Virus record (IMG/VR): IMGVR_UViG_2740892235_000006
Length of the DNA: 8,446 bases
Strand: one strand, 5' to 3'
Origin: a virus
Lineage: Duplodnaviria; Heunggongvirae; Uroviricota; Caudoviricetes
This document shows positions 1 to 8,446 of this stretch, piece by piece (position 1 is the stretch's first letter; each line of letters begins with the position of its first letter). A program made the translations under genes and the position numbers. The notes under the pieces were generated by a model. The model searched no databases, was not told the DNA's origin, and saw nothing but the letters and a program-made list of their open reading frames with translations.

Positions 1-1446
1 CCAATAAAGGTTTCTACTTTGCTGTCTTTGAATTTCTCAACAAGCAGATCACGAAATTCGTTAGCCATTTCTTCCTGCACCGCTTCCAGCTGAATAATGC
101 GCAGAACCAGTACAGGACGATCGCCAGTGATAATGCTGAGGCGTAATTTAAACGGACGTTCTTTCAGACCTTCAAACGGAACGCATTTAAATTCAAATGC
201 CACTGGCATAATGTCTTTGGTCTTCGCTTCGACAGACTCCATCAGGGAGCGTTTGCCGCTGAAGTCATTATCTTCAAAATCAGCGGTCTGGTTTGCTTCA
301 ATCGTGATTTTACGGACAGCCGCAGCCGCTTTTGTTGCCTGAATAGCGTCACCATTAGCATCAAAGCCCACAAGGTAGTCGGCCCAGTCTTCAATCCATT
401 CTGCCAGTGACTTCTGGGAGTTACGCTCGCCATTAACAGACAACAGAGCAGAGAACGGTGCTGTTTTTTTCAGTTTGAGAGTGGCGGTGTTATCTGCGTG
501 ACCTGGTTCATCAATAGTACCCAGGTTAAGCACACTGACTGCTCGCATATTATCGGCATCGATAAAGCAGCGGGTGCCTTCATCTGCAAGATCTTTAGAA
601 TAACGGGTAAAGTCATCGATGCTNNNNNNNNNNATTACGCTCGCCATTAACAGACAACAGAGCAGAGAACGGTGCTGTCTTTTTCAGTTTGAGAGTGGCG
701 GTGTTATCTGCGTGACCTGGCTCATCAATAGTACCCAGGTTAAGCACACTGACGGCACGCATATTATCGGCATCGATAAANNNNNNNNNNTGCCGCAGCC
801 GCTTTTGTTGCTTGAATGGCGTCACCATTAGCATCAAAGCCCACAAGGTAGTCGGCCCAGTCTTCGATCCATTCTGCCAGTGACTTCTGGGAGTTACGCT
901 CGCCGTTAACAGACAACAGAGCAGAGAACGGTGCTGTCTTTTTCAGTTTGAGAGTGGCAGTGTTATCTGCGTGACCTGGCTCATCAATAGTACCCAGGTT
1001 AAGCACACTGACGGCACGCATATTATCGGCATCGATAAAGCAGCGGGTGCCTTCATCTGCAAGATCTTTAGAATAACGGGTAAAATCATCGATGCTGGCA
1101 GTGGAAAGTGCACCACGGAAACGGAAGCGATTTAAATTAAATTTTTCCAGATCATGAATGCGGAAATTCTCAGGCAATGCCACAGCATCNNNNNNNNNNA
1201 CGATTTAAATTAAATTTTTCCAGATCATGAATGCGGAAATTCTCAGGCAATGCCACAGCATCGGCACCAATCTTACTGATNNNNNNNNNNGCGATTTAAA
1301 TTAAATTTTTCCAGATCATGAATGCGGAAATTCTCAGGCAATGCCACAGCATCGGCACCAATCTTACTGATAATTTCATTAACACCCTGAGCAGAAATAA
1401 GGGCATGGATTTGATTAATTGCGGTTGCGTCTAAGTTCTGAGACAT
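1..1446 (-). CDS. Phage leftward-operon protein of unknown function, at least 270 aa; 5' end at 1446, 3' end beyond the window start; present as overlapping tiles across four N10 gaps
   Basis: ATG is the reverse complement of 1444-1446, with an SD-like TGAGGA 6 nt upstream. One continuous minus-strand frame runs through tiles 1291-1446, 792-1189 and 1-623, reading [60 protein letters not shown]...[49 protein letters not shown]...KVETFIG. Tiles differ only by synonymous changes. Length and the adjacent 120-aa gene loosely recall a yfdP-yfdQ-type prophage pair, but this is unverified recollection. Confidence 0.7.
319..1095. repeat. Three overlapping near-identical tiles (319-623, 635-780, 792-1095) separated by N10 gaps at 624-633 and 781-790
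   Basis: Direct comparison of the flanks of each N run; the few differences are synonymous in the minus-strand reading frame. Confidence 0.9.
1127..1353. repeat. Three overlapping tiles (1127-1189, 1200-1262, 1291-1353) around N10 gaps at 1190-1199 and 1281-1290
   Basis: The string gcgatttaaattaaatttttccagatcatgaatgcggaaattctcaggcaatgccacagcatc recurs after each gap. Confidence 0.9.
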
Positions 1447-1498
1447 AATAAGTCCTCACTATATAAAGATATTCAGTGATGAGATAAATAATCGGTTA

Positions 1499-1709
1499 AT
1501 TAAGAACGATATTAATGACCTGCTGCGCGGAGTTTTCCGTCAGGTTCACCGGCAAGAGTCAGTAATTGTCCCTGGTCTTCCTGCAGAATAGTCAGGNNNN
1601 NNNNNNAGTTTATTAAGAACGATATTAACGACCTGCTGCGCGGAGTTTTCCGTCAGGTTCACCGGCAAGAGTCAGTAATTGTCCCTGGTCTTCCTGCAGA
1701 ATAGTCAGG
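1499..1709. repeat. Two overlapping tiles (1499-1596, 1612-1709) around the N10 gap at 1597-1606
   Basis: Near-identical sequence with one substitution that changes the terminal codon of the 120-aa gene (AAGH* versus AAGR*). Confidence 0.9.
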
Positions 1710-2180
1710 CGACCACCGCGATTGACATACATCGGCGTTTCGGTGGTGTCTTCTTCGGAAATTTTCCCGCGGTTAGTCGGGCGAACATATGAGAGTTTGT
1801 GTTTGATTTTCACACGGTTCTCATCAAATGGTTCGATTTCCAGGTTGAGTGAGACCTTACCTTTGGTTTTCGTGTTCATCACACCTGAAGCGACTTCACT
1901 GAGAACTGCGCCGATTTTGGTTTCAAATACGCCGCCGTCCAGCTCCCCGATAAATGCCTGCACATCNNNNNNNNNNGACATATGAGAGTTTGTGTTTGAT
2001 TTTCACACGGTTCTCATCAAACGGTTCGATTTCCAGATTGAGTGAGACCTTCCCTTTGGTTTTCGTGTTCATCACACCGGAAGCGACCTCACTGAGAACT
2101 GCGCCGATTTTGGTTTCAAATACGCCGCCGTCCAGCTCCCCGATAAATGCCTGCACATCAGTACTGCGTTCGCTAGCCAT
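1625..2180 (-). CDS. Phage hypothetical protein, about 120 aa once the duplicated tile is collapsed; interrupted by the N10 gap at 1967-1976
   Basis: ATG is the reverse complement of 2178-2180, with SD GAGGAG 7 nt upstream. Stop is the reverse complement of 1625-1627. Protein reads MASERSTDVQAFIGELDGGVFETKIGAVLSEVASGVMNTKTKGKVSLNLEIEPFDENRVKIKHKLSYVRPTNRGKISEEDTTETPMYVNRGGRLTILQEDQGQLLTLAGEPDGKLRAAGR. Segment 1978-2159 repeats 1785-1966, and a second allelic 3' end lies at 1512-1596. Confidence 0.75.
1785..2159. repeat. Two overlapping tiles (1785-1966, 1978-2159) around the N10 gap at 1967-1976
   Basis: Direct comparison; a handful of substitutions. Confidence 0.9.
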
Positions 2181-2228
2181 TTTGCTGCTCCTCATCATAT
2201 CGACCCTGCAAGGTCGGTTGGTTTCTCC

Positions 2229-2317
2229 ACAAAACAGAGAAGAACACCTGCGGTGGCAGCCGCCCGGATGGATTGGGTTATGAGCCCGTCGCCCGGTGAT
2301 GCTCTTCTCTGTTTTGT
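2229..2317. repeat. 16-bp inverted repeat (15 of 16 match), acaaaacagagaagaa at 2229-2244 and ctcttctctgttttgt at 2302-2317, with a 57-bp GC-rich spacer
   Basis: Seen directly; it abuts the terminator U-tract and lies in the 5' leader of the 120-aa gene. Confidence 0.6.
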
Positions 2318-2363
2318 AAAAAGAGCGGTACCAGCCGGAAGCAAGTGTACAAACTGGTACCGC
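2316..2363 (-). terminator. Candidate rho-independent terminator on the leftward transcript, upstream of the 120-aa gene
   Basis: Perfect 10-bp inverted repeat gcggtaccag (2325-2334) and ctggtaccgc (2354-2363) with a 19-nt loop. On the minus-strand RNA the 3' arm is followed directly by UCUUUUUAC (reverse complement of 2316-2324). Confidence 0.5.
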
Positions 2364-2786
2364 CAAAGCAGTGGCTGTTGTGGTGGGGTTGTCACTCAGG
2401 CGTATGGTCAACCTGACAATCCGGTGTCCTCAACGGGGAAAGAGTAACCCCGCCATACTTACCGCCGCGCCATTTCGCGGATTACCACAACGCTGAGAGC
2501 ACTTAGCCAGTTACGGCACCACACTTTGTCGTGGTTCCATAAATGCCCTCATCGTTGCACCCTGGTCTCTTCCCAGGTGTCAAACCGAACCGCCACGCTG
2601 GTTAGGCGTCTTATCAGCATCATCATTGACTTGCACATTCCGGCTACCTGGTTTGTTTGCCCGAGCAAGGAGTGGATTGTCCCCTTTAACGTCCCCAGAC
2701 CGCTAACGACGCATGTGCCATACGCCGTGTTACAACCAAATTTTGTTAGGACCTTGTTTGTTGGTCTGGAAAGAAAGATAAAATGA

Positions 2787-2834
2787 AATTGCGCATTATG
2801 CAAGTGTTTTGTTGCGAGATGCGCAATATGATGG
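2787..2834. promoter_or_regulatory. Candidate left operator region (OL-like)
   Basis: Shares motifs with the cI-cro intergenic region: TTGCGCA (2789-2795 versus 3616-3622) and the exact 9-mer CGCAATATG (2822-2830 versus 3653-3661). Contains the palindrome TTGCG-N5-CGCAA at 2812-2826. No clean -35/-10 pair could be resolved. Confidence 0.45.
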
Positions 2835-2840
2835 GTGATG

Positions 2841-2860
2841 AAAAGCCACCTTCTGGTGGC
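2841..2860 (-). terminator. Candidate intrinsic terminator just downstream of the repressor gene
   Basis: Stem gccacc (2845-2850) and ggtggc (2855-2860) with loop ttct. On the minus-strand RNA the stem is followed by UUUU (reverse complement of 2841-2844). It starts 22 nt past the repressor stop. Confidence 0.45.
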
Positions 2861-2881
2861 TAATTGATGAGGAGGTCGGGG

Positions 2882-3574
2882 TTAATTGTGTCGCTTAAGG
2901 GTTTGTGACTGACTGATTAAGACCTTCCCAAAGACCATAAACCGGTGTTCGTTTTCGCTGGTAATTCCCCATTCACGGTAAATCTGGTTATCAGAAATCA
3001 CCAGTAGTTTGTCAGGTATCATTTGCAGTCGTTTGACATAAATTTTATCATCAAAACCAAACACATAGATACCATCCCCATCAAACTGATTGATACTGAT
3101 ATCAACGAAGATGAGATCTCCTGGCTCAATGGTTGGACACATACTGTCCCCACGAACGTTGATAACTTTAATGTGATTGGCTGGTCGTCCTCCAAACATC
3201 GATACAGCATTATCAGTTATGTATTCAATGGCATGAATCACATCAATGACATCACCGCCCTGGATAAGGCCATTTCCCGCACTGGCACTGACATCCAGCA
3301 TTTCAATACGGAATACATCCTTCACCTGCGCAACATCCTCACCAGTACTGTTTTTACATACAGTATTACTTTTGAAGTCTGAGGTAAAGAGATCTGCAAT
3401 ATCAACACCTAAGCTCCTGGCAATATTACTCAGGGCTTGTTCAGTGAATTGTTTCTGCTTACCTGTTTCCAGGCGTGAGATATTCGCCGCATCCACTCCT
3501 ATTGCTTCAGCGAGATCGGCGATTTTCATGTTCTTCGCCTGGCGAAGTTGTCTGACTCGATTTCCTATGTTCAT
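2882..3574 (-). CDS. CI-type phage repressor, 230 aa: N-terminal XRE-family helix-turn-helix plus C-terminal S24 (LexA-like) autopeptidase
   Basis: N-terminus MNIGNRVRQLRQAKNMKIADLAEAIGVDAANISRLETGK is a typical HTH. C-terminal half carries the S24 signature GDSM (catalytic Ser) and a downstream YVKRL (Lys). It is divergent from the cro-like gene. No SD precedes the ATG. Confidence 0.9.
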   Translation of the reverse strand: MNIGNRVRQLRQAKNMKIADLAEAIGVDAANISRLETGKQKQFTEQALSNIARSLGVDIADLFTSDFKSNTVCKNSTGEDVAQVKDVFRIEMLDVSASAGNGLIQGGDVIDVIHAIEYITDNAVSMFGGRPANHIKVINVRGDSMCPTIEPGDLIFVDISINQFDGDGIYVFGFDDKIYVKRLQMIPDKLLVISDNQIYREWGITSENEHRFMVFGKVLISQSQTLKRHN

Positions 3575-3671
3575 GCGTTTATTACATTTCTTTATTGCGC
3601 GTTAAGCAAATCAACTTGCGCAAAATATTTGCGTGAAATAATATGCTTATCACGCAATATGTGGAGGTTAT
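3575..3671. promoter_or_regulatory. Divergent operator/promoter region (OR-like) with candidate pRM (leftward) and pR (rightward)
   Basis: Repeated TTGCG/CGCAA half-sites, including the palindrome TTGCGCAA at 3616-3623 and TTGCGTG-N15-CACGCAA at 3629-3657. Candidate pR: -35 TTGCGC 3616-3621, 17-bp spacer, -10 TAATAT 3639-3644, then SD GGAGG 3663-3667. Candidate pRM on the minus strand: -35 TTGCTT (rc of 3604-3609), 17-bp spacer, -10 TGTAAT (rc of 3581-3586), placing the start at the A of the repressor ATG. Confidence 0.55.
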
Positions 3672-3932
3672 ATGCAATCACCATTACGAAATGTGCGTAA
3701 GGCGCACGGATTTACTTTGCAGCATGTTGCTGCGGGTGTTCAGGTTAATCCAGCGACGCTGAGTCGTATTGAGAGACTGGAACAAATTCCATCTATCGAT
3801 CTGGCAGAGCGTCTGGCCAATTTTTTTAAGGGAGAAATCAGCGAAATGCAGATTCTCTATCCTGCTCGCTTTCAATCTAGTCAAAACCGGAATGAGTTAA
3901 AACCACAGGAAAAGGAGGTAAGCCGTGGGTAA
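3672..3932 (+). CDS. Cro-like XRE-family helix-turn-helix regulator, 86 aa
   Basis: First gene of the rightward operon, divergent from the repressor. HTH-like segment FTLQHVAAGVQVNPATLSRIERLE. SD GGAGG 4 nt upstream of the ATG. Its 3' end overlaps the next gene by 8 nt. Confidence 0.8.
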   Translation: MQSPLRNVRKAHGFTLQHVAAGVQVNPATLSRIERLEQIPSIDLAERLANFFKGEISEMQILYPARFQSSQNRNELKPQEKEVSRG

Positions 3933-4476
3933 GCATCACTGGAAAGTGGAAAAACAGCCTGAGTGGTACGTGAAAGCGGTCAGAAAAACTATCGCGGCGT
4001 TGCCGGGTGGTTACGCTGAAGCAGCTGAGTGGCTGGATGTAACAGAGAACGCTTTATTCAATCGCCTTCGTGCCGATGGCGATCAGATTTTCCCGCTGGG
4101 ATGGGCAATGATTTTACAGCGCGCGGCTGGCACTCACTACATTGCGGATGCTGTCGCACAGTCTGCTGATGGGGTGTTTGTATCGCTTCCTGACATTGAG
4201 GAAGTAGAGAACGCCGATATAAACCAGCGCCTGCTGGAAGTCATCGAACAGATCGGGAGTTACTCAAAGCAGATTCGTTCGGCAATCGAAGATGGGGTAG
4301 TGGAGCCACACGAGCAGACAGCAATGAATGATGAGTTGTATCTGTCAATTTCGAAGCTCCAGGAGCATGCGGCACTGGTCTACAAAATTTTCTGCGCTCC
4401 AGAAAAGAGTGACGCCCGCGAGTGTGCAGCTCCGGGCGTCGTGGCGTTTTGTGTCTGTGGAGAAACTAACGCATGA
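3925..4476 (+). CDS. CII-like phage regulatory protein (resembles the phage 186 CII / CP76 type), 183 aa, GTG start
   Basis: Strong SD AAGGAGG 6 nt upstream of GTG 3925. Position is immediately after cro. Segment ALFNRLRADGDQIFPLGWAMILQRAAGTHYIADAVAQ resembles the 186-CII-type family from memory. Confidence 0.65.
   Translation: MGKHHWKVEKQPEWYVKAVRKTIAALPGGYAEAAEWLDVTENALFNRLRADGDQIFPLGWAMILQRAAGTHYIADAVAQSADGVFVSLPDIEEVENADINQRLLEVIEQIGSYSKQIRSAIEDGVVEPHEQTAMNDELYLSISKLQEHAALVYKIFCAPEKSDARECAAPGVVAFCVCGETNA
4409..4457. terminator. GC-rich hairpin with pyrimidine/U-rich flanks on both strands inside the 3' end of the CII-like gene; candidate bidirectional terminator
   Basis: Stem gacgcccg (4411-4418) and cgggcgtc (4433-4440), extendable by 3 bp inside the loop. 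Minus-strand RNA continues ACUCUUUUCUG. Plus-strand RNA continues GGCGUUUUGUGUCU. Confidence 0.4.
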
Positions 4477-5636
4477 ACAGTTTAACGGCAAATAACCGTT
4501 TGTCGCAACAGCTGGTGGTCAGTGTCGCTGCACACCTGTTGTTACGGCATGAATGCAGATTACCAAATCACCTGGCTGTAAGTAACCACAGAGAACTTTA
4601 CCTGACTGTGGGGGGCGAGTTGTGCAGGAACTTAACCGCTGGTTTCGTGACGGAAGAGGACTTTATGTTCATGTTATTCGTTGGGAGCCAGAAACACAGC
4701 GCGTTATCTATCTTCGCAAAGACTACCCGCATGAGTGCTTTAGTCCTTTGTGGAAATTCAGGCGTGATTTTGTTGAGTGTGAAGGACCAGCAGCATATTG
4801 ATTCTGCAATTCCGGGACGTTACACTGTACCGGCACCTTATAAAGCGGGTGCCGGGATTGGCGTCCTGAAATTGATTACTGAGCATAACCGCGCTCATGC
4901 GGTTTTTTCGTGTCATGAGCATTGCTACGCCCAAATTATGGTGGGGCGTACAGGGCCGACTTCGGTCGGGCCGGGTTCGGTAGTCTCCGGTAACGCCAAC
5001 CCTGTACGTCTCACCACCTCTGTGATTGGCGTCCCATGTGGTGAGTTTTCTAAAAAACTGACTACCGGGGCTGTCACTATGACTACTCTCCCAACCCTCT
5101 CTCAACCTGAAATTGCCATCGTTGATGGTCAGGCTGTTACATCTTCTTTGGCTGTTGCTGACTTCTTCTCTAAACGTCATGACGATGTTCTGAAAAAGAT
5201 CCGCATTTTGGATTGTTCTCCAGAGTTTTGTGCCCGCAATTTTGCGGAGACATCAATTTTGGTACGCCAGCCCAACGGCGGTACTCGCAAACTTCCCTGC
5301 TATCAAATCACCCGCGACGGTTTTGCGTTTCTTGCCATGGGCTTCACTGGTAAACGTGCTGCCCGGTTCAAAGAGGCATACATCAACGCCTTTAACCTGA
5401 TGGAGAAACAGCTTTCAAAGCCCGCTGTACCGAGCGACGTTGCACATAACGCCAGCGTTCTCTGTTCCTACATTTCATCAATTCATCAGGTCTGGCTGCA
5501 GCAGCTTTATCCTATGTTGGCAAAAGCCGAATCTCCGCTGGCTGTTAGCTTATATGACTATATTAATGATGCTTCGGCGCTGGCCTGCCTCATAAATTTG
5601 TCGCTGAACCCTTCAGAGGCAAGGGGGCGCAAATGA
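4473..5636 (+). CDS. 387-aa ORF with a C-terminal Rha-family phage regulatory domain (residues about 203-387) and an N-terminal 200 aa of uncertain coding status
   Basis: ATG 4473 overlaps the CII-like stop (ATGA). The segment from M203 (ATG 5079), MTTLPTLSQPEIAIVDGQAVTSSLAVADFFSKRHDDVLKKIRIL...YQITRDGFAFLAMGFTGKRAARFKEAYINAFNLMEKQL, matches the Rha signature (FGKRHDNVLRDI-like, MGFTG). The upstream 600 nt is open in frame but rich in rare codons (tta, ggg, aga, agg). A G6 run at 4610-4615 connects to a second open frame. Confidence 0.6.
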   Translation: MNSLTANNRLSQQLVVSVAAHLLLRHECRLPNHLAVSNHRELYLTVGGELCRNLTAGFVTEEDFMFMLFVGSQKHSALSIFAKTTRMSALVLCGNSGVILLSVKDQQHIDSAIPGRYTVPAPYKAGAGIGVLKLITEHNRAHAVFSCHEHCYAQIMVGRTGPTSVGPGSVVSGNANPVRLTTSVIGVPCGEFSKKLTTGAVTMTTLPTLSQPEIAIVDGQAVTSSLAVADFFSKRHDDVLKKIRILDCSPEFCARNFAETSILVRQPNGGTRKLPCYQITRDGFAFLAMGFTGKRAARFKEAYINAFNLMEKQLSKPAVPSDVAHNASVLCSYISSIHQVWLQQLYPMLAKAESPLAVSLYDYINDASALACLINLSLNPSEARGRK

Positions 5637-5857
5637 TCCGGAATATTTTCAAACGTTTTACCAATCAGACTTTCCGTTGTCCTCGTCCGGGTCAGTGGTA
5701 CACCACGCCTGCAGGGCATGTTCTACGTGTTAGCCTGGTTGACCGTGAATGTCAGAAGGTGATTTGTGAACCGCTGGGCCGTAATTACCGCGTCAGTATG
5801 CCGCTTATAGCCTTTCGCTCCGGAAAAAACATGAAGCATCTCGGAGGTGCAGCATGA
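5633..5857 (+). CDS. Hypothetical small phage protein, 74 aa
   Basis: ATGA overlaps at both ends (with the Rha-domain ORF upstream and the replication gene downstream). G-rich SD-like stretch upstream. Protein MIRNIFKRFTNQTFRCPRPGQWYTTPAGHVLRVSLVDRECQKVICEPLGRNYRVSMPLIAFRSGKN; no family recognised. Confidence 0.5.
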   Translation: MIRNIFKRFTNQTFRCPRPGQWYTTPAGHVLRVSLVDRECQKVICEPLGRNYRVSMPLIAFRSGKNMKHLGGAA

Positions 5858-6672
5858 GTATGGAGCTGATGGTTAAAGCGATGAAAATTCGAGTGGGTAA
5901 TCCATTGCGAAAACTGGTTCTGATCAAGCTGGCTGATAATGCCAGCGATCAGGGTGAGTGCTGGCCCAGCTACCAGCATATTGCTGACCAGTGCGAGATT
6001 AGCAAACGTTCTGTGATGAATCATATTGCGGCCCTTTGTGAGTCCGGGCTGGTAAAAAAAGTCACCCGGAAAGGTGAAAAAGGTAACTCAAGTAATATCT
6101 ATCTCCTTCATCTTGATGGTGCAGGAGATTCACTAGGGGGTAGTGCAAATAATTCACTATCTGGTGCAGCAAATTCACCAGGTAGTGCAGGAGTTGCACC
6201 AGGGGGTAGTGCAGGAGATTCACCCAGAACCAGTCACTCTTTTGAACCAGTCAAAGAACCAGTCAATGAACCAATAGCTGTTGGTGCATCTGCTGATGAG
6301 TCTGTGCGAGTTCGTTCAAACCGACCGGAATACTCTCCGGAGTTTGAGCAGGCATGGCTGGCATATCCCAAACGTGCTGGTGGCAATTCAAAATCTGCAG
6401 CCTTCAAAGCCTGGAAAGCCCGTTTGAATGAGGGGGTAAACCCCGAAACCATGCTGGAAGGTGTGAAACGCTACGCGGGCTGGGTATCTGCGATGGGTAA
6501 CAGCGGCACACAATTTGTGAAACAGGCTGTCACGTTCTTTGGTCCGGATCGTCATTTCGAAGAATCCTGGGAAGTTCCTGCGGTATCTGTAGCCGGACGT
6601 GAGGACCCGTACTTCAAAGCCAGTTACGACAACGTGGACTACAGCCAGATCCCGGCAGGATTCAGGGGGTGA
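5854..6672 (+). CDS. Replication initiation protein (lambda O-like organiser): N-terminal winged-helix/HTH domain, central Gly/Ser/Ala-rich linker, C-terminal domain; 272 aa
   Basis: SD GGAGG 6 nt upstream. N-terminus MSMELMVKAMKIRVGNPLRKLVLIKLADNASDQGECWPSYQHIADQCEISKRSVMNHIAALCESGLVKK looks like the HTH of phage replication proteins. Position after cII and Rha is typical. The linker is encoded by direct repeats. Confidence 0.7.
   Translation: MSMELMVKAMKIRVGNPLRKLVLIKLADNASDQGECWPSYQHIADQCEISKRSVMNHIAALCESGLVKKVTRKGEKGNSSNIYLLHLDGAGDSLGGSANNSLSGAANSPGSAGVAPGGSAGDSPRTSHSFEPVKEPVNEPIAVGASADESVRVRSNRPEYSPEFEQAWLAYPKRAGGNSKSAAFKAWKARLNEGVNPETMLEGVKRYAGWVSAMGNSGTQFVKQAVTFFGPDRHFEESWEVPAVSVAGREDPYFKASYDNVDYSQIPAGFRG
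6118..6275. repeat. Iteron-like direct repeats inside the O-like gene, preceded by an AT-rich stretch (6081-6117); candidate replication origin
   Basis: Five imperfect 16-19-bp repeats with consensus GGT(AGT)GCAGGAGATTCAC starting at 6118, 6139, 6163, 6181 and 6205, then GAACCAGTCA three times (6228-6237, 6244-6253, 6257-6266) plus a partial fourth (gaaccaa, 6269-6275). Confidence 0.4.
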
Positions 6673-6674
6673 TC

Positions 6675-6767
6675 ATGAGTCTTTTGAATGAAGTTCAGAA
6701 ATTCATTGAAGCCCATCCGGGCTGTACTTCCGGAGACATTGCGGATGCTTTTTACGTGGGGGCTTAA
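6675..6767 (+). CDS. 30-aa ORF (MSLLNEVQKFIEAHPGCTSGDIADAFYVGA), possibly the remnant of a longer gene cut at a module junction
   Basis: Starts 2 nt after the O-like stop and its TAA overlaps the methyltransferase ATG. Its last 15 nt are shared with the different gene found upstream of the second methyltransferase copy. Confidence 0.3.
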   Translation: MSLLNEVQKFIEAHPGCTSGDIADAFYVGA

Positions 6768-8047
6768 TGAGTAATAAATATTGCCAGGCGCTGGTAGAAC
6801 TGCGGAACAAACCAGCCCATGAACTGAAGGAAGTGGGCGATCAGTGGCGCACGCCGGACAACATTTTCTGGGGAATTAACACCTTGTTTGGTCCGTTTGT
6901 TCTGGATCTGTTCACTGACGGTGATAACGCCAAATGTGCCGCGTATTACACGGCGGAAGACAACGCGCTGGCGCATGACTGGTCAGAACGTCTTGCGGAG
7001 CTTAAAGGTGCTGCCTTTGGTAATCCCCCATACAGCCGCGCCAGTCAGCATGAGGGGCAATACATCACCGGCATGCGTTACATCATGAAGCATGCCAGTG
7101 CCATGCGTGATAAAGGCGGGCGCTATGTTTTCCTGATTAAAGCTGCCACCAGCGAAGTGTGGTGGCCGGAAGATGCAGATCATATTGCTTTTATTCGCGG
7201 GCGTATTGGTTTTGAACTGCCTGTCTGGTTTATCCCGAAAGACGAGAAGCAGGTACCGACAGGCGCTTTCTTCGCTGGTGCTATTGCTGTTTTCGACAAG
7301 ACCTGGAAGGGACCGGCAATCAGCTACATCGGGCGCGATGAACTTGANNNNNNNNNNCAGAACGAAATAATTTTCTGGCGCGTCGTGAACGGTGTTTACG
7401 GAAAAGCAGCAAGCGGGCTGCATCAGGTGAAGAGTGGTATCTGTCAGGGAATTACGTGGGGGCTTAATGAGTAATAAATATTGCCAGGCGCTGGTGGAAC
7501 TACGGAACAAACCAGCCCATGAACTGAAGGAAGTGGGCGATCAGTGGCGCACGCCGGATAACATTTTCTGGGGAATTAACACCCTGTTTGGCCCGTTTGT
7601 TCTGGATCTGTTCACTGATGGTGATAACGCCAAATGTGCTGCGTATTACACGGCGGAAGACAACGCGCTGGCGCATGACTGGTCAGAACGTCTTGTGGAG
7701 CTTAAAGGTGCTGCCTTTGGTAATCCCCCATACAGCCGCGCCAGTCAGCATGAGGGGCAATACATCACTGGCATGCGTTACATCATGAAGCATGCCAGTG
7801 CCATGCGTGATAAGGGCGGGCGCTATGTTTTCCTGATCAAAGCTGCCACCAGCGAAGTGTGGTGGCCGGAAGATGCAGATCATATTGCTTTTATTCGCGG
7901 GCGTATTGGTTTTGAACTGCCTGCCTGGTTTATCCCGAAAGACGAGAAGCAGGTGCCGACAGGAGCGTTCTTCGCTGGTGCTATTGCTGTTTTCGACAAG
8001 ACCTGGAAGGGACCGGCAATCAGCTACATCGGGCGCGATGAACTTGA
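6752..8047. repeat. Two near-identical methyltransferase tiles (6752-7347 and 7452-8047) with different upstream contexts, separated by the N10 gap at 7348-7357
   Basis: Identity begins at the shared string ttacgtgggggcttaatgagtaataaata; sequence further upstream differs completely between the two copies. Confidence 0.85.
6767..7347 (+). CDS. Phage Dam-type N6-adenine DNA methyltransferase, copy 1, truncated at the N10 gap 7348-7357
   Basis: NPPY catalytic motif (GNPPYS) encoded at 7022-7033. Reads MSNKYCQALVELRNKPAHELKEVGDQWRTPDNIFWGINTLFGPFVLDLFTDGDNAKCAAYY. Typical nin-region position after the replication gene. Confidence 0.8.
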
Positions 8048-8120: not shown

Positions 8121-8446
8121 CGACGTTAACTCAATGCCAGCAGCAGGTGCTGGATATGCTGATTTCTTACCAGCAAGAACGTGGCTTCCCGCCAACTAAT
8201 CAGGAGGTGGCAACCATGCTGGGATACCGTTCAGTGAATGCAGCGGTGGAGCATCTTCGCGCACTGGAGAAAAAAGGCGTCATCACGATAAANNNNNNNN
8301 NNTCAGAAAGAGCGTGGCTTTCCGCCAACCAATCAGGAGGTGGCAACCATGCTGGGATACCGTTCGGTGAATGCAGCGGTGGAGCATCTTCGCGCACTGG
8401 AGAAAAAAGGCGTCATCACGATAAAGCGTGGCGTGGCCCGGGGGAT
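8117..8446 (+). CDS. LexA N-terminal DNA-binding-domain-like (winged helix) protein, partial; runs off the window end and crosses the N10 gap at 8293-8302
   Basis: ATG 8117 overlaps the methyltransferase stop (ATGA). [59 protein letters not shown] aligns by eye to the LexA N-terminus ([58 protein letters not shown]). Segment 8303-8425 repeats 8170-8292 with substitutions and extends to ...KRGVARG. Confidence 0.65.

What the first reader, a model, noticed from the sequence alone, without database searches (positions are those of the whole stretch)
4400..4510. Possible OOP-like antisense RNA at the 3' end of the CII-like gene
A strong hairpin (4409-4442) is followed on the minus strand by CUCUUUUCU, and a weak minus-strand promoter candidate lies about 70-100 nt upstream in that orientation (-35 TTGCGA as rc of 4503-4508, -10 TTAAAC as rc of 4480-4485). 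That would give a roughly 73-nt antisense RNA over the cII 3' end, close to the 77-nt lambda OOP RNA. On the plus strand the hairpin plus GUUUUGUGU could also dampen read-through into downstream genes, like a tR1.
Basis: inference. Interest (0 to 1): 0.45.

Follow-up and report, generated by a model that had tools for sequence, protein, structure and literature searches.

The report
Prophage antisense RNA at ymfL–ymfM junction
The hairpin is the terminator of a real, roughly 72-nt antisense RNA gene that has already been detected in related prophages of E. coli K-12 and probably Salmonella; it sits opposite the end of a CII-like gene and the ribosome-binding site of a cell-division-inhibitor-like gene, and its function has never been tested.

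Summary
The hairpin at 4411-4440 is the most stable local hairpin in the window. A U-rich tail follows it on the minus strand, and a minus-strand promoter lies upstream, best read as TTGCGA-N18-TAAACT (4508-4479).

The predicted RNA (about 4472 to 4401, minus strand) is the ortholog of ECS003. ECS003 is a ~70-nt cis-antisense RNA detected by Northern blot and deep sequencing in the e14 prophage of E. coli K-12. It also appears to match the 3' part of Salmonella ST64B STnc1300.

Every one of about 260 related loci examined carries the element, apart from a Pseudomonas phage and lambda (the OOP comparator). Both stem-loops covary. G-U wobbles fall on the minus sense (63 cells against 3). The key promoter bases are invariant although the spacer sequence is free. 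Conservation peaks on the RNA, not on the flanking proteins.

The RNA covers the last 72 nt of ymfL (a CP76-type CII-like gene). It also covers the Shine-Dalgarno sequence of the downstream ymfM-like ORF; YmfM is the SfiC division inhibitor of e14. By position it therefore resembles both lambda OOP and P22 sar, but it is homologous to neither.

Function remains inferred.

The parts
4503..4508 (-). -35 hexamer TTGCGA of the antisense promoter
   Evidence: TTGC is invariant and the following G nearly so in 38 diverse sequences, at a fixed 18-nt distance from the -10, while the spacer sequence is free. It is kept even where the downstream gene is a different mosaic variant. On the plus strand it uses the Gln codon CAA throughout.
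4479..4484 (-). -10 hexamer TAAACT of the antisense promoter
   Evidence: T-12, A-11, A-9 and T-7 are invariant. Variants are TAAATT, TACACT, TAAAAT and TACAAT. It lies 7 nt upstream of the start inferred from the K-12 data. On the plus strand it uses the rare Leu codon TTA in nearly all relatives (GTA or ATA in a few variants).
4401..4472 (-). Predicted ~72-nt antisense RNA, ortholog of E. coli K-12 ECS003. The 5' end is G4472. The 3' end lies within the U-rich tract, about 4401-4404.
   Evidence: Covariance model R1 matches 4398-4472(-) at 88.4 bits, E 2e-20. The K-12 ECS003 sequence aligns end to end. The fold has z -3.83.
4444..4472 (-). 5' stem-loop SL1. The closing stem is GCGUU/AACGC. 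The apical region carries the anti-Shine-Dalgarno sequence UCUCC.
   Evidence: The closing pairs covary (pair 4: UA 31, AU 12, GC 5). G-U wobbles occur in the minus sense only. SL1 is predicted in nearly all of the 78 sequences folded.
4411..4440 (-). Terminator stem-loop SL2: 8 bp, a bulge, then 3 bp, with loop CUGCACA
   Evidence: 98.7% of cells are paired and 6 of 11 pairs show changes on both sides. There are 34 G-U cells in the minus sense against 2 A-C cells. It is the most stable hairpin in the window.
4401..4408 (-). U-rich tail UCUUUUCU after SL2
   Evidence: A run of U is present at this place in groups A, B and C and in the Klebsiella phage. The 78-nt K-12 RNA ends at the equivalent tract. 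The mapped STnc1300 3' boundary falls at its first U. The tract is absent from the Hafnia and Yersinia copies.
3925..4476 (+). ymfL, a CII-like gene of the phage-186 CP76 family. Its last 72 nt are overlapped by the antisense RNA.
   Evidence: Pfam PF06892, E 4e-14. The domain ends at residue 150, so the hairpin lies in the variable C-terminal tail. Annotated ymfL or 'regulatory protein CII' in public records.
4459..4475 (+). Shine-Dalgarno GGAG (4459-4462) and start codon ATG (4473-4475) of the downstream ymfM-like ORF. The Shine-Dalgarno sequence lies inside the region complementary to the RNA. The start codon abuts the RNA's 5' end.
   Evidence: Sequence. The ATGA stop/start overlap with ymfL and the Shine-Dalgarno sequence are conserved in all loci. 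The ORF is a diverged YmfM-core homolog (HMM 20 bits).
4550..4565 (-). Possible second, distal antisense promoter (extended -10 TGGTAATCT at 4565-4557; start near A4550). It would give a ~145-nt isoform ending at the same terminator.
   Evidence: By homology only. The 5' boundary of Salmonella ST64B STnc1300 maps to the equivalent A, behind an identical TTTGGTAATCT.

Best explanation
The region 4401-4508 (minus strand) is a small gene for a cis-antisense RNA. It is the ortholog of ECS003 of the E. coli K-12 e14 prophage.

A sigma-70 promoter (TTGCGA-N18-TAAACT) is written into codons 3-12 of the downstream ymfM-like ORF. It starts leftward transcription at about G4472, one base before that ORF's ATG. 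The RNA forms two stem-loops. SL1 presents the anti-Shine-Dalgarno sequence UCUCC in its apical part. SL2 plus a U-rich tail is an intrinsic terminator written into the variable C-terminal codons of ymfL. The product is about 72 nt long.

The following steps are inferred. The RNA is made constitutively in the lysogen. It pairs perfectly with any rightward early transcript across the ymfL-ymfM junction. It occludes the Shine-Dalgarno region of the ymfM-like gene (YmfM is the SfiC FtsZ-ring inhibitor of e14), as sar does for ant in P22. [quoted passage not shown] The net effect is a threshold: leaky early transcription gives no division inhibitor and little CII-like protein, while full induction out-titrates the RNA.

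My estimates: about 0.9 that the RNA exists here; about 0.5 that RBS masking of the downstream gene is its main action.
For: Shown in relatives
- ECS003 is the most abundant cis-antisense candidate of K-12. It gives a ~70-nt Northern band and a 78-nt region of high coverage. It is listed with an experimentally determined start 3 nt inside the mapped 5' end. Its level was the same in all conditions tested, which included an hfq mutant.
- Its sequence carries the same SL2, base for base, and the same promoter.
- Salmonella ST64B STnc1300 is listed on the '+' strand. It maps so that its 3' boundary is the first U after the hairpin. It is expressed at roughly 150-4400 TPM, about 1000 or more in most of the 17 conditions. 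The coordinate mapping was validated because STnc1290 falls exactly on the isrK and C4 matches.

Shown here
- Model R1 finds exactly one significant copy, on the minus strand, in each of 78 sources, at 60-90 bits. It also finds copies next to CII-like genes only 29-32% identical, at 37-59 bits.
- Covariation: 0 of 500 shuffles reach the observed score, and the slid controls are 3-9 times lower.
- G-U wobbles number 63 in the minus sense, against 3 A-C cells that would be wobbles in the plus sense.
- In hairpin types A, B and C the stem and the TGCAG loop motif are read in different codon frames and encode different peptides. In the Klebsiella phage the hairpin is intergenic. So the constraint is on the nucleic acid, not the protein.
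- Key promoter bases are invariant and the spacing is fixed.
- Conservation peaks at 4408-4437 (0.77) and 4453-4497 (0.70), against about 0.55 for the coding flanks.
- The downstream ORF is a YmfM-family member in every locus examined. YmfM causes SOS-inducible filamentation.
Against: - No transcript data exist for this exact prophage. Expression is inferred from homologs.
- No experiment anywhere has tested the function. The ECS003 authors only suggested RBS masking.
- The promoter matches consensus at only 8 of 12 positions, and the U tract is interrupted.
- The Hafnia and Yersinia copies keep SL2 but lack a U tract. The loop motif CUGCA is invariant, which neither a plain terminator nor a cis-antisense mechanism requires. 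SL2 may therefore do something more.
- In this window the ymfM-like ORF is diverged and shows no clear third-position bias. It runs in frame into a chimeric 387-aa ORF, so its product may not be a working division inhibitor.
- The strand of STnc1300 relative to the phage is inferred from gene order in a different strain.
Confidence: 0.65

Rival explanations
1. A purely OOP-like regulator. The RNA's main target is the CII-like ymfL message. It triggers RNase III cleavage of that message's 3' end and shifts the lysis-lysogeny decision. The overlap with the next gene's ribosome-binding site is incidental.
For: - The RNA overlaps the last 72 nt of ymfL in the window and in most relatives.
- It travels with ymfL across mosaic boundaries that change the downstream gene.
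- Its size and position match the 77-nt OOP (review).
Against: - In Klebsiella phage ST147-VIM1phi7.2 the CII-like gene stops at the first bases of the hairpin. Only about 15 nt of the gene are overlapped, yet the RNA, its promoter and the ymfM-like ribosome-binding site are all kept.
- The RNA's 5' end abuts the downstream start codon in every locus, and the anti-Shine-Dalgarno sequence sits in the SL1 apex.
- A YmfM-like ORF follows in every locus.
- There is no homology to OOP, and ymfL is not a lambda-type cII.
Confidence: 0.2
2. The conserved SL2 with its invariant CUGCA loop is a recognition element for a protein or for a second target in trans. Antisense pairing at the locus is secondary.
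For: - The loop motif is invariant across hairpin types whose stems covary, and across different plus-strand reading frames.
- SL2 is retained in the Hafnia and Yersinia copies, which have no U tract.
Against: - No candidate partner was found. The loop complement TGTGCAG occurs 5 times in the window against 1.6 expected (9 of 200 shuffles reach 5), and the other sites are not conserved in relatives.
- The Yersinia copy has CCGCA instead.
- ECS003 levels were the same in all tested conditions, including an hfq mutant.
Confidence: 0.1
3. The hairpin acts on the plus strand. It would be a tR1-like terminator or attenuator, or an mRNA structure that limits read-through or translation into the downstream genes.
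For: - In the window the plus-sense hairpin is slightly more stable (-22.8 against -20.2 kcal/mol).
- It is followed, 5 nt later, by UUUUGUGU.
Against: - The plus-strand U run is absent from most relatives, for example GUGGCAGAUAAAUC, GGCGUCAAAAAC and UCGAUGCGACUAAAU.
- Wobble pairs are almost all in the minus sense, 63 against 3.
- In groups B and C the minus-sense fold is 5-13 kcal/mol more stable than the plus-sense fold.
Confidence: 0.04
4. The inverted repeat is a DNA site, such as an operator or recombination site, rather than an RNA structure.
For: Perfect 8-bp arms GACGCCCG/CGGGCGTC. Compensatory changes also preserve a DNA palindrome.
Against: - Many variants break the DNA palindrome while keeping RNA pairing through G-U in one sense only.
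- The bulge moves from one arm to the other between hairpin types.
- The repeat always sits at a fixed distance from a conserved promoter, and in most copies it is followed by a U tract.
- An RNA of the right size is observed in K-12.
Confidence: 0.01

Closest known systems
ECS003, a candidate cis-antisense sRNA of the e14 cryptic prophage, E. coli K-12 (Shinhara et al. 2011, BMC Genomics 12:428, PMC3175480)
   Same: A true ortholog.
- SL2 is identical (30 of 30 bases).
- The -35 and -10 hexamers and their spacing are the same.
- The 5' end abuts the ATG of the downstream gene, and the position opposite the ymfL 3' end and ymfM RBS is the same.
- Both match model R1 strongly (88.4 and 81.4 bits).
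   Different: - The 3' arm of SL1 is 6 nt shorter here.
- The U tract is better here (UCUUUUCU against UUACUUUCU).
- The downstream gene is a diverged ymfM-like ORF fused in frame into a long chimeric ORF, instead of the e14 ymfM.
- ECS003 itself has no demonstrated function, and no Rfam family matches the element.
Lambda OOP RNA (77 nt; antisense to the 3' end of cII; RNase III-dependent)
   Same: A short leftward RNA with two stem-loops and its own constitutive promoter. It sits in the immunity/replication region, overlaps the 3' end of the gene at the cII position, and ends at an intrinsic terminator inside that gene.
   Different: - No sequence or structure homology (R1 gives 6.7 bits, E 1.3 at the OOP locus).
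- The overlapped gene is a CP76-type (phage 186) CII-like protein, not lambda CII.
- Here the RNA also covers the Shine-Dalgarno sequence of the next gene, and its promoter lies inside that gene.
- RNase III dependence is untested.
P22 sar RNA (68-69 nt; antisense to the ant ribosome-binding site)
   Same: It has a similar size. Its promoter lies in the 5' part of the regulated gene. The RNA runs back across that gene's ribosome-binding site into the 3' end of the upstream gene. (Properties of sar are from established knowledge and the review read.)
   Different: - No match to any Rfam family at E up to 10.
- The flanking genes differ (ymfL/ymfM-like instead of arc/ant).
- It lies in the immC-like early right operon, not in immI.
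STnc1300, an annotated ncRNA of the Salmonella ST64B prophage
   Same: It maps onto the homologous locus (75% DNA identity to the window, same gene order). Its 3' boundary is at the first U after the same hairpin. It is listed on the strand that is antisense to the early operon.
   Different: It is annotated as 139 nt, starting 72 nt upstream of the conserved start, behind a candidate extended -10 that the window also has (4565-4557). No functional study was found.

Membership tests
ECS003-type antisense RNA (e14 prophage) | Sequence and secondary-structure homology to the published ECS003 sequence | tested here: met
   The window and K-12 copies align over their full length. SL2 is identical. 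Model R1 gives 88.4 bits (window) and 81.4 bits (K-12).
ECS003-type antisense RNA (e14 prophage) | Location opposite the 3' end of ymfL and the ribosome-binding site of the next (ymfM-family) gene, with the 5' end next to that gene's start codon | tested here: met
   The RNA spans 4472 to about 4401. The ymfL stop is at 4474-4476, the Shine-Dalgarno sequence at 4459-4462 and the ATG at 4473.
ECS003-type antisense RNA (e14 prophage) | Own sigma-70 promoter placed to give the mapped start | tested here: met
   TTGCGA-N18-TAAACT is identical in K-12 and in the window. The start inferred from the K-12 table falls 7 nt after the -10.
ECS003-type antisense RNA (e14 prophage) | Detectable ~70-nt transcript in cells carrying the prophage | not testable with these tools
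   Shown only for K-12 e14 (Northern blot). Probably also for ST64B (RNA-seq annotation).
Lambda OOP RNA | Short RNA antisense to the 3' end of the gene in the cII position, ending at a terminator inside it | tested here: met
   Positional analogy only: there is a 72-nt overlap with ymfL.
Lambda OOP RNA | Homology to lambda OOP | tested here: not met
   R1 gives 6.7 bits, E 1.3 at the lambda OOP locus. No Rfam family matches 4398-4472 at E up to 10.
Lambda OOP RNA | The target gene is a lambda-type cII | tested here: not met
   The only Pfam family is PF06892 (Phage_CP76, phage 186 type).
Lambda OOP RNA | RNase III-dependent cleavage of the target message | not testable with these tools
   Needs Northern blots in rnc+ and rnc- backgrounds.
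P22 sar RNA | Antisense RNA that covers the ribosome-binding site of the downstream gene, from a promoter inside that gene | tested here: met
   Positional analogy only. The Shine-Dalgarno sequence at 4459-4462 lies within the RNA. The promoter at 4479-4508 lies within codons 3-12 of the ORF.
P22 sar RNA | Homology to sar | tested here: inconclusive
   No Rfam family of any kind matches the element at E up to 10. I did not confirm that sar has an Rfam model, and I made no direct comparison with the P22 sequence.
Intrinsic (Rho-independent) terminator, minus strand | G+C-rich stem-loop followed directly by a U-rich tract, with RNA 3' ends there | tested here: met
   There are 11 bp (9 G-C) followed by AC-UCUUUUCU. 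The K-12 78-nt RNA and the STnc1300 boundary end at this tract. Two distant copies lack the U tract.
Intrinsic terminator, plus strand (tR1-like) | Conserved U tract 3' of the hairpin on the plus strand | tested here: not met
   The U run is present only in the window-type sequences and lost in other groups.

The most novel reading that the evidence does not exclude
The RNA is the dedicated, antitoxin-like governor of the YmfM/SfiC family of prophage cell-division inhibitors. It belongs to a three-part module (CII-like gene, antisense RNA, YmfM core) conserved across enterobacterial lambdoid phages and not matched by any Rfam family in my scans. Its invariant SL2 loop CUGCA serves as a specific recognition element (for a protein or a second target), beyond termination and cis pairing.
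Probability: 0.25. Interest if true: 0.6.

Novelty: new member of a known kind. Interest (0 to 1): 0.45.

Why it matters
The element is present in 2708 of 5426 complete E. coli genomes, in up to four copies per genome. These include Stx-converting phages. It also occurs in prophages of Salmonella, Shigella, Klebsiella, Citrobacter, Erwinia, Hafnia and Yersinia.

It is better conserved than either protein gene it overlaps. Yet no Rfam family matches it, a 2025 review of phage sRNAs does not mention e14, ymfL or ECS003, and I found no functional study of it.

It sits on the ribosome-binding site of the gene family that includes SfiC/YmfM, the SOS-inducible division inhibitor of e14. I found nothing on how that gene is regulated beyond the prophage repressor. 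It also sits on the 3' end of the phage's CII-like regulator.

A defined promoter, start, structure and covariance model now allow direct tests by synonymous promoter knock-outs. They would also allow the RNA to be annotated in thousands of genomes.

Tried and rejected
- The simple promoter/terminator scan reports nothing at the site. The promoter has 8 of 12 matches and the stem is bulged, so this absence is not informative.
- The repeat finder with max_distance 20 did not list the hairpin. I replaced it with an all-window RNAfold scan.
- Rfam at E up to 10 gave no family for the element. The only real hits are isrK and C4, downstream.
- I considered STnc1310 as the ST64B counterpart and rejected it. 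It maps to the far side of cI. STnc1300 is the one that fits.
- Homology to lambda OOP: the best R1 match does fall on the OOP locus, but at 6.7 bits, E 1.3, which is not significant.
- Search for a trans target of the SL2 loop (TGTGCAG): 5 sites against 1.6 expected. One lies at the DUF4222 start codon (4621-4627), but it is not conserved in relatives. I treat it as chance.
- I looked by eye for a LexA box, for lambda-CII-type TTGC-N6-TTGC repeats, and for a resemblance to the cI-cro operator at the antisense promoter. Nothing was convincing.
- The plain MAFFT alignment misplaced the group-B hairpin. I therefore realigned with the covariance model. That realignment leans towards the structure, but the slid-partner and shuffle controls still separate clearly.
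- One paper reading failed on a term that was too short. The Tree et al. 2014 EHEC sRNA list was therefore not checked.
Full report
CONTEXT

The window is the immunity and early-right region of a lambdoid E. coli prophage. It is 100% identical over 3600-5200 to two E. coli chromosomes and 99.9% identical to phage 1720a-02.

Gene order:
- an S24/HTH CI-like repressor, 2882-3574 (-)
- a Cro-like HTH protein, 3672-3932 (+)
- ymfL, 3925-4476 (+). This matches Pfam PF06892, 'phage regulatory protein CII (CP76)', E 4e-14, and the domain ends at residue 150.
- an ORF that starts at 4473 in an ATGA stop/start overlap with ymfL

Downstream lie a DUF4222 ORF (4622-4801), then Rfam matches to isrK (4833-4909, 59 bits) and C4 (4934-5021, 82 bits), then a Rha-domain gene.

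The window is stitched from pieces separated by runs of ten N. The finding lies inside the one long contiguous piece, 1978-7347.

THE OBSERVATION

The hairpin is GACGCCCG-C-GAG-TGTGCAG-CTC-CGGGCGTC at 4411-4440. It is the most stable local hairpin of the whole window on either strand (-22.8 and -20.2 kcal/mol; the next best is -18.3).

On the minus strand it is followed by AC-UCUUUUCU.

Upstream on that strand lie TTGCGA (4508-4503) and, 18 nt later, TAAACT (4484-4479). It is better because it keeps A-11 and T-7.

The 73-nt RNA running from G4472 folds into two stem-loops. Its z-score is -3.83, and the MFE structure takes half of the ensemble.

DIRECT EVIDENCE FROM RELATIVES

Shinhara et al. 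2011 (PMC3175480) deep-sequenced small RNAs of E. coli K-12. They list ECS003 as the most abundant of their nine cis-antisense candidates with predicted sigma-70 promoters. It lies in the e14 prophage, opposite ymfL and ymfM.
- It gives a ~70-nt Northern band, plus a faint band at ~120 nt.
- A 78-nt region carries many reads.
- It has a predicted sigma-70 promoter.
- It is class A: an experimentally determined start (taken from earlier datasets) lies 3 nt inside the mapped 5' end.
- Its level was the same in all conditions tested, which included an hfq mutant.

The published sequence begins CAUGCGUUAGUUUCUCC and contains ...GACGCCCGGAGCUGCACACUCGCGGGCGUC.... That is the window's hairpin, base for base.

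Counting 3 nt in from the CAUG puts the start on the G that corresponds to window 4472. This is 7 nt after TAAACT. A 78-nt RNA from there ends exactly at the end of the U-rich tract. I read the sign of the '3' in their table as downstream, because only that reading is compatible with any -10 element.

The authors only suggested that ECS003 might mask the ymfM ribosome-binding site. I found no later work on it. A 2025 review of phage sRNAs does not mention e14, ymfL or ECS003.

In Salmonella, the ST64B prophage has the same gene order as the window at 75% DNA identity. I mapped D23580 coordinates onto the ST64B record using the cI and cro genes. The mapping is validated because STnc1290 then falls exactly on the isrK and C4 matches (L002 2725-2913).

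STnc1300 (139 nt) is expressed at roughly 150-4400 TPM, about 1000 or more in most of the 17 conditions. It maps to L002 2304-2442. It is listed on the '+' strand. Given the gene order, that is the strand antisense to the early operon, but this is an inference across strains. Its 3' boundary is the first U after the hairpin.

Its 5' boundary is 72 nt upstream of the conserved start. It lies behind TTTGGTAATCT, a candidate extended -10 that the window shares (4565-4557). A longer isoform from about 4550 is therefore possible here.

CONSERVATION AND STRUCTURE

I collected about 260 loci that encode YmfL relatives. All but the Pseudomonas phage locus carry the element.

The terminator hairpin comes in three sequence types, which I call A, B and C:
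- Type A: GRCGCCCG-GAG-CUGCACA-CUC-G-CGGGCGYY
- Type B: GARCGCYGC-GGR-CUGCAA-UCC-N-GCGGCGUUC
- Type C: GACGCCNN-N-GAS-CUGCACA-SUC-NNGGCGUC, with the bulge on the other arm

The plus strand reads these types in different frames and as different peptides (…DARECAAPGVV…, …NAAGLQSAAF…, …DARSVQLAGV…). In Klebsiella phage ST147-VIM1phi7.2 the CII-like gene stops at the first bases of the hairpin, so there the hairpin is intergenic. The constraint is therefore on the nucleic acid, not the protein.

A covariance model (R1) finds exactly one significant copy, on the minus strand, in each of 78 non-redundant sources, at 60-90 bits. It also finds copies next to CII-like proteins only 29-32% identical to YmfL (identities):
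- Hafnia phage yong2, 59 bits
- the Klebsiella phage, 56 bits
- Yersinia phage YeP1, 37 bits

A Pseudomonas phage gave no match.

On the model-based alignment:
- SL2 is 98.7% paired, and 6 of its 11 pairs show changes on both sides.
- The four closing pairs of SL1 are kept, and the fourth covaries (UA, AU or GC).
- No shuffle out of 500 reaches the observed covariation score.
- Sliding the 3' partners lowers pairing from 90% to 28-50%.

The alignment was fitted to the structure, so these numbers lean towards it. Even so, the three hairpin types are obvious by eye in the raw sequences.

WHICH STRAND

Non-Watson-Crick cells in the two helices are G-U in the minus sense 63 times. They are A-C (which would be G-U in the plus sense) only 3 times.

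In groups B and C the minus-sense fold is 5-13 kcal/mol more stable than the plus-sense fold. In group A the two are similar.

A run of U follows the hairpin on the minus strand in groups A, B and C and in the Klebsiella copy. The plus-strand U run seen in the window is absent elsewhere.

The structure therefore belongs to the minus-strand RNA.

THE PROMOTER

In 38 diverse sequences, TTGC of the -35 and T-12, A-11, A-9 and T-7 of the -10 are invariant. The spacer is always 18 nt, but its sequence is free.

The distant copies have TTGCGG-N18-TAAAAT, TTGCGA-N18-TAAACT and TTGCGG-N18-TACAAT.

On the plus strand these bases are a Leu codon that is TTA in nearly all relatives (GTA or ATA in a few variants) and a Gln codon that is always CAA. 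Both are minority codons.

Where the downstream gene switches to a different mosaic variant (window type against e14 type), the sequence between the hexamers is unrelated. The hexamers and their spacing stay the same.

A sliding-window profile over 12 representatives shows the two highest conservation peaks of the whole ymfL-ymfM region at 4408-4437 (0.77) and 4453-4497 (about 0.70). Coding sequence scores about 0.55.

WHAT IT PAIRS WITH

The RNA is complementary to the rightward early transcript from the base before the downstream ATG back through the Shine-Dalgarno sequence (GGAG, 4459-4462) and the last 72 nt of ymfL. Its anti-Shine-Dalgarno sequence UCUCC lies in the apical part of SL1.

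The downstream ORF is a YmfM-family member in every locus examined. The conserved core is only 53-65 aa. The window's version is a diverged homolog (20 bits against a core HMM).

YmfM of e14 is SfiC, an SOS-inducible inhibitor of FtsZ-ring formation. The paper that identified it does not mention the antisense RNA.

MECHANISM

Shown, in relatives: a constitutive ~70-nt antisense RNA exists at this place.

Shown here: it has a conserved promoter, two covarying stem-loops and a minus-strand terminator, and it belongs to a widespread family.

Inferred: it masks the ribosome-binding site of the ymfM-like gene, as sar does for ant. Through a ~72-bp duplex it also exposes the ymfL 3' end to RNase III, as OOP does for cII. 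Together these set a threshold against leaky early transcription in the lysogen.

The Klebsiella arrangement has little overlap with the CII-like gene but a full overlap with the ribosome-binding site. This makes RBS masking the more general function. The two are not exclusive.

UNEXPLAINED

The SL2 loop motif CUGCA is invariant in all types except Yersinia (CCGCA). The Hafnia and Yersinia copies keep SL2 but have no U tract. SL2 may therefore do more than terminate.

COMPARISON WITH KNOWN SYSTEMS

The element is a member of the ECS003 family. That family is uncurated: no Rfam family matches the element at E up to 10 in the window, and none reached gathering score in four other loci.

It works like OOP and sar by position, but it is not homologous to OOP (R1 gives 6.7 bits, E 1.3 at the lambda OOP locus). 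Its 'cII' is of the phage-186 CP76 type, not the lambda type.

VERDICT

It is not new in the strict sense, because the RNA has already been seen in K-12 and probably in Salmonella.

New here are the family-wide conservation and covariation, the defined promoter and structure, the strand assignment, the link to the YmfM/SfiC ribosome-binding site, and the element's prevalence in 2708 of 5426 complete E. coli genomes. Function remains to be tested.

Noticed in passing
window 624-633, 781-790, 1190-1199, 1281-1290, 1597-1606, 1967-1976, 7348-7357, 8293-8302: The window is a patchwork. Runs of ten N separate pieces that overlap one another on the reference chromosome, so variant copies of the same prophage segments (for example two copies of the adenine methyltransferase gene) lie side by side. 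Only 1978-7347 is one contiguous piece.
   Followed up: partly
window 4473-5636 (+): The 387-aa ORF annotated as 'Rha family phage regulatory protein' looks chimeric. Against ST64B and Citrobacter, substitutions fall on third positions of the DUF4222 frame in about 4608-4790. They show no codon bias across isrK and C4. They fall on third positions of the long-ORF frame only from about 5060 onward. The real Rha/antirepressor gene probably starts near 5060-5090.
   Followed up: partly
window 4821-5109 (+): The Pfam Phage_ASH (PF10554) match to the long ORF (residues 117-212) lies on the isrK and C4 RNA genes. That protein family may be built partly from translated RNA genes.
   Followed up: no
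window 4833-4909 and 4934-5021 (+): Strong Rfam matches to isrK (59 bits) and C4 antisense RNA (82 bits) lie upstream of the Rha gene. There is also a weak match to the C4 target sites a1/b1 at 4820-4872. Together this is a P1-immI / Gifsy-1-IsrK-like module. In ST64B the annotated ncRNA STnc1290 covers exactly this pair.
   Followed up: partly
L095 (E. coli K-12 NC_000913.3) 4002-4181 = genome 1204001-1204180: The 3' half of K-12 ymfM (annotated as 112 aa) overlaps, in another frame, an unannotated 59-aa ORF. That ORF closely resembles the window's Pfam-verified DUF4222 ORF. In other phages the YmfM core is only 53-65 aa and the DUF4222 gene follows it. Plasmids that express 'ymfM' would also carry this ORF.
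   Followed up: partly
window 4550-4565 (-): A candidate extended -10 (TGGTAATCT) is identical in ST64B, where the 5' boundary of STnc1300 maps 7 nt downstream of it. It suggests a longer (~145 nt) antisense isoform that ends at the same terminator.
   Followed up: partly
window 3629-3657: A perfect inverted repeat TTGCGTGA-N13-TCACGCAA lies in the cI-cro intergenic region. It is likely an operator of the CI-like repressor.
   Followed up: no
window 4424-4428 (TGCAG on +; CUGCA in the RNA loop): The loop motif of the terminator hairpin is invariant across hairpin types whose stems covary. Two distant copies (Hafnia, Yersinia) keep the hairpin but have no U tract. Neither termination nor cis-antisense pairing explains this.
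   Followed up: partly
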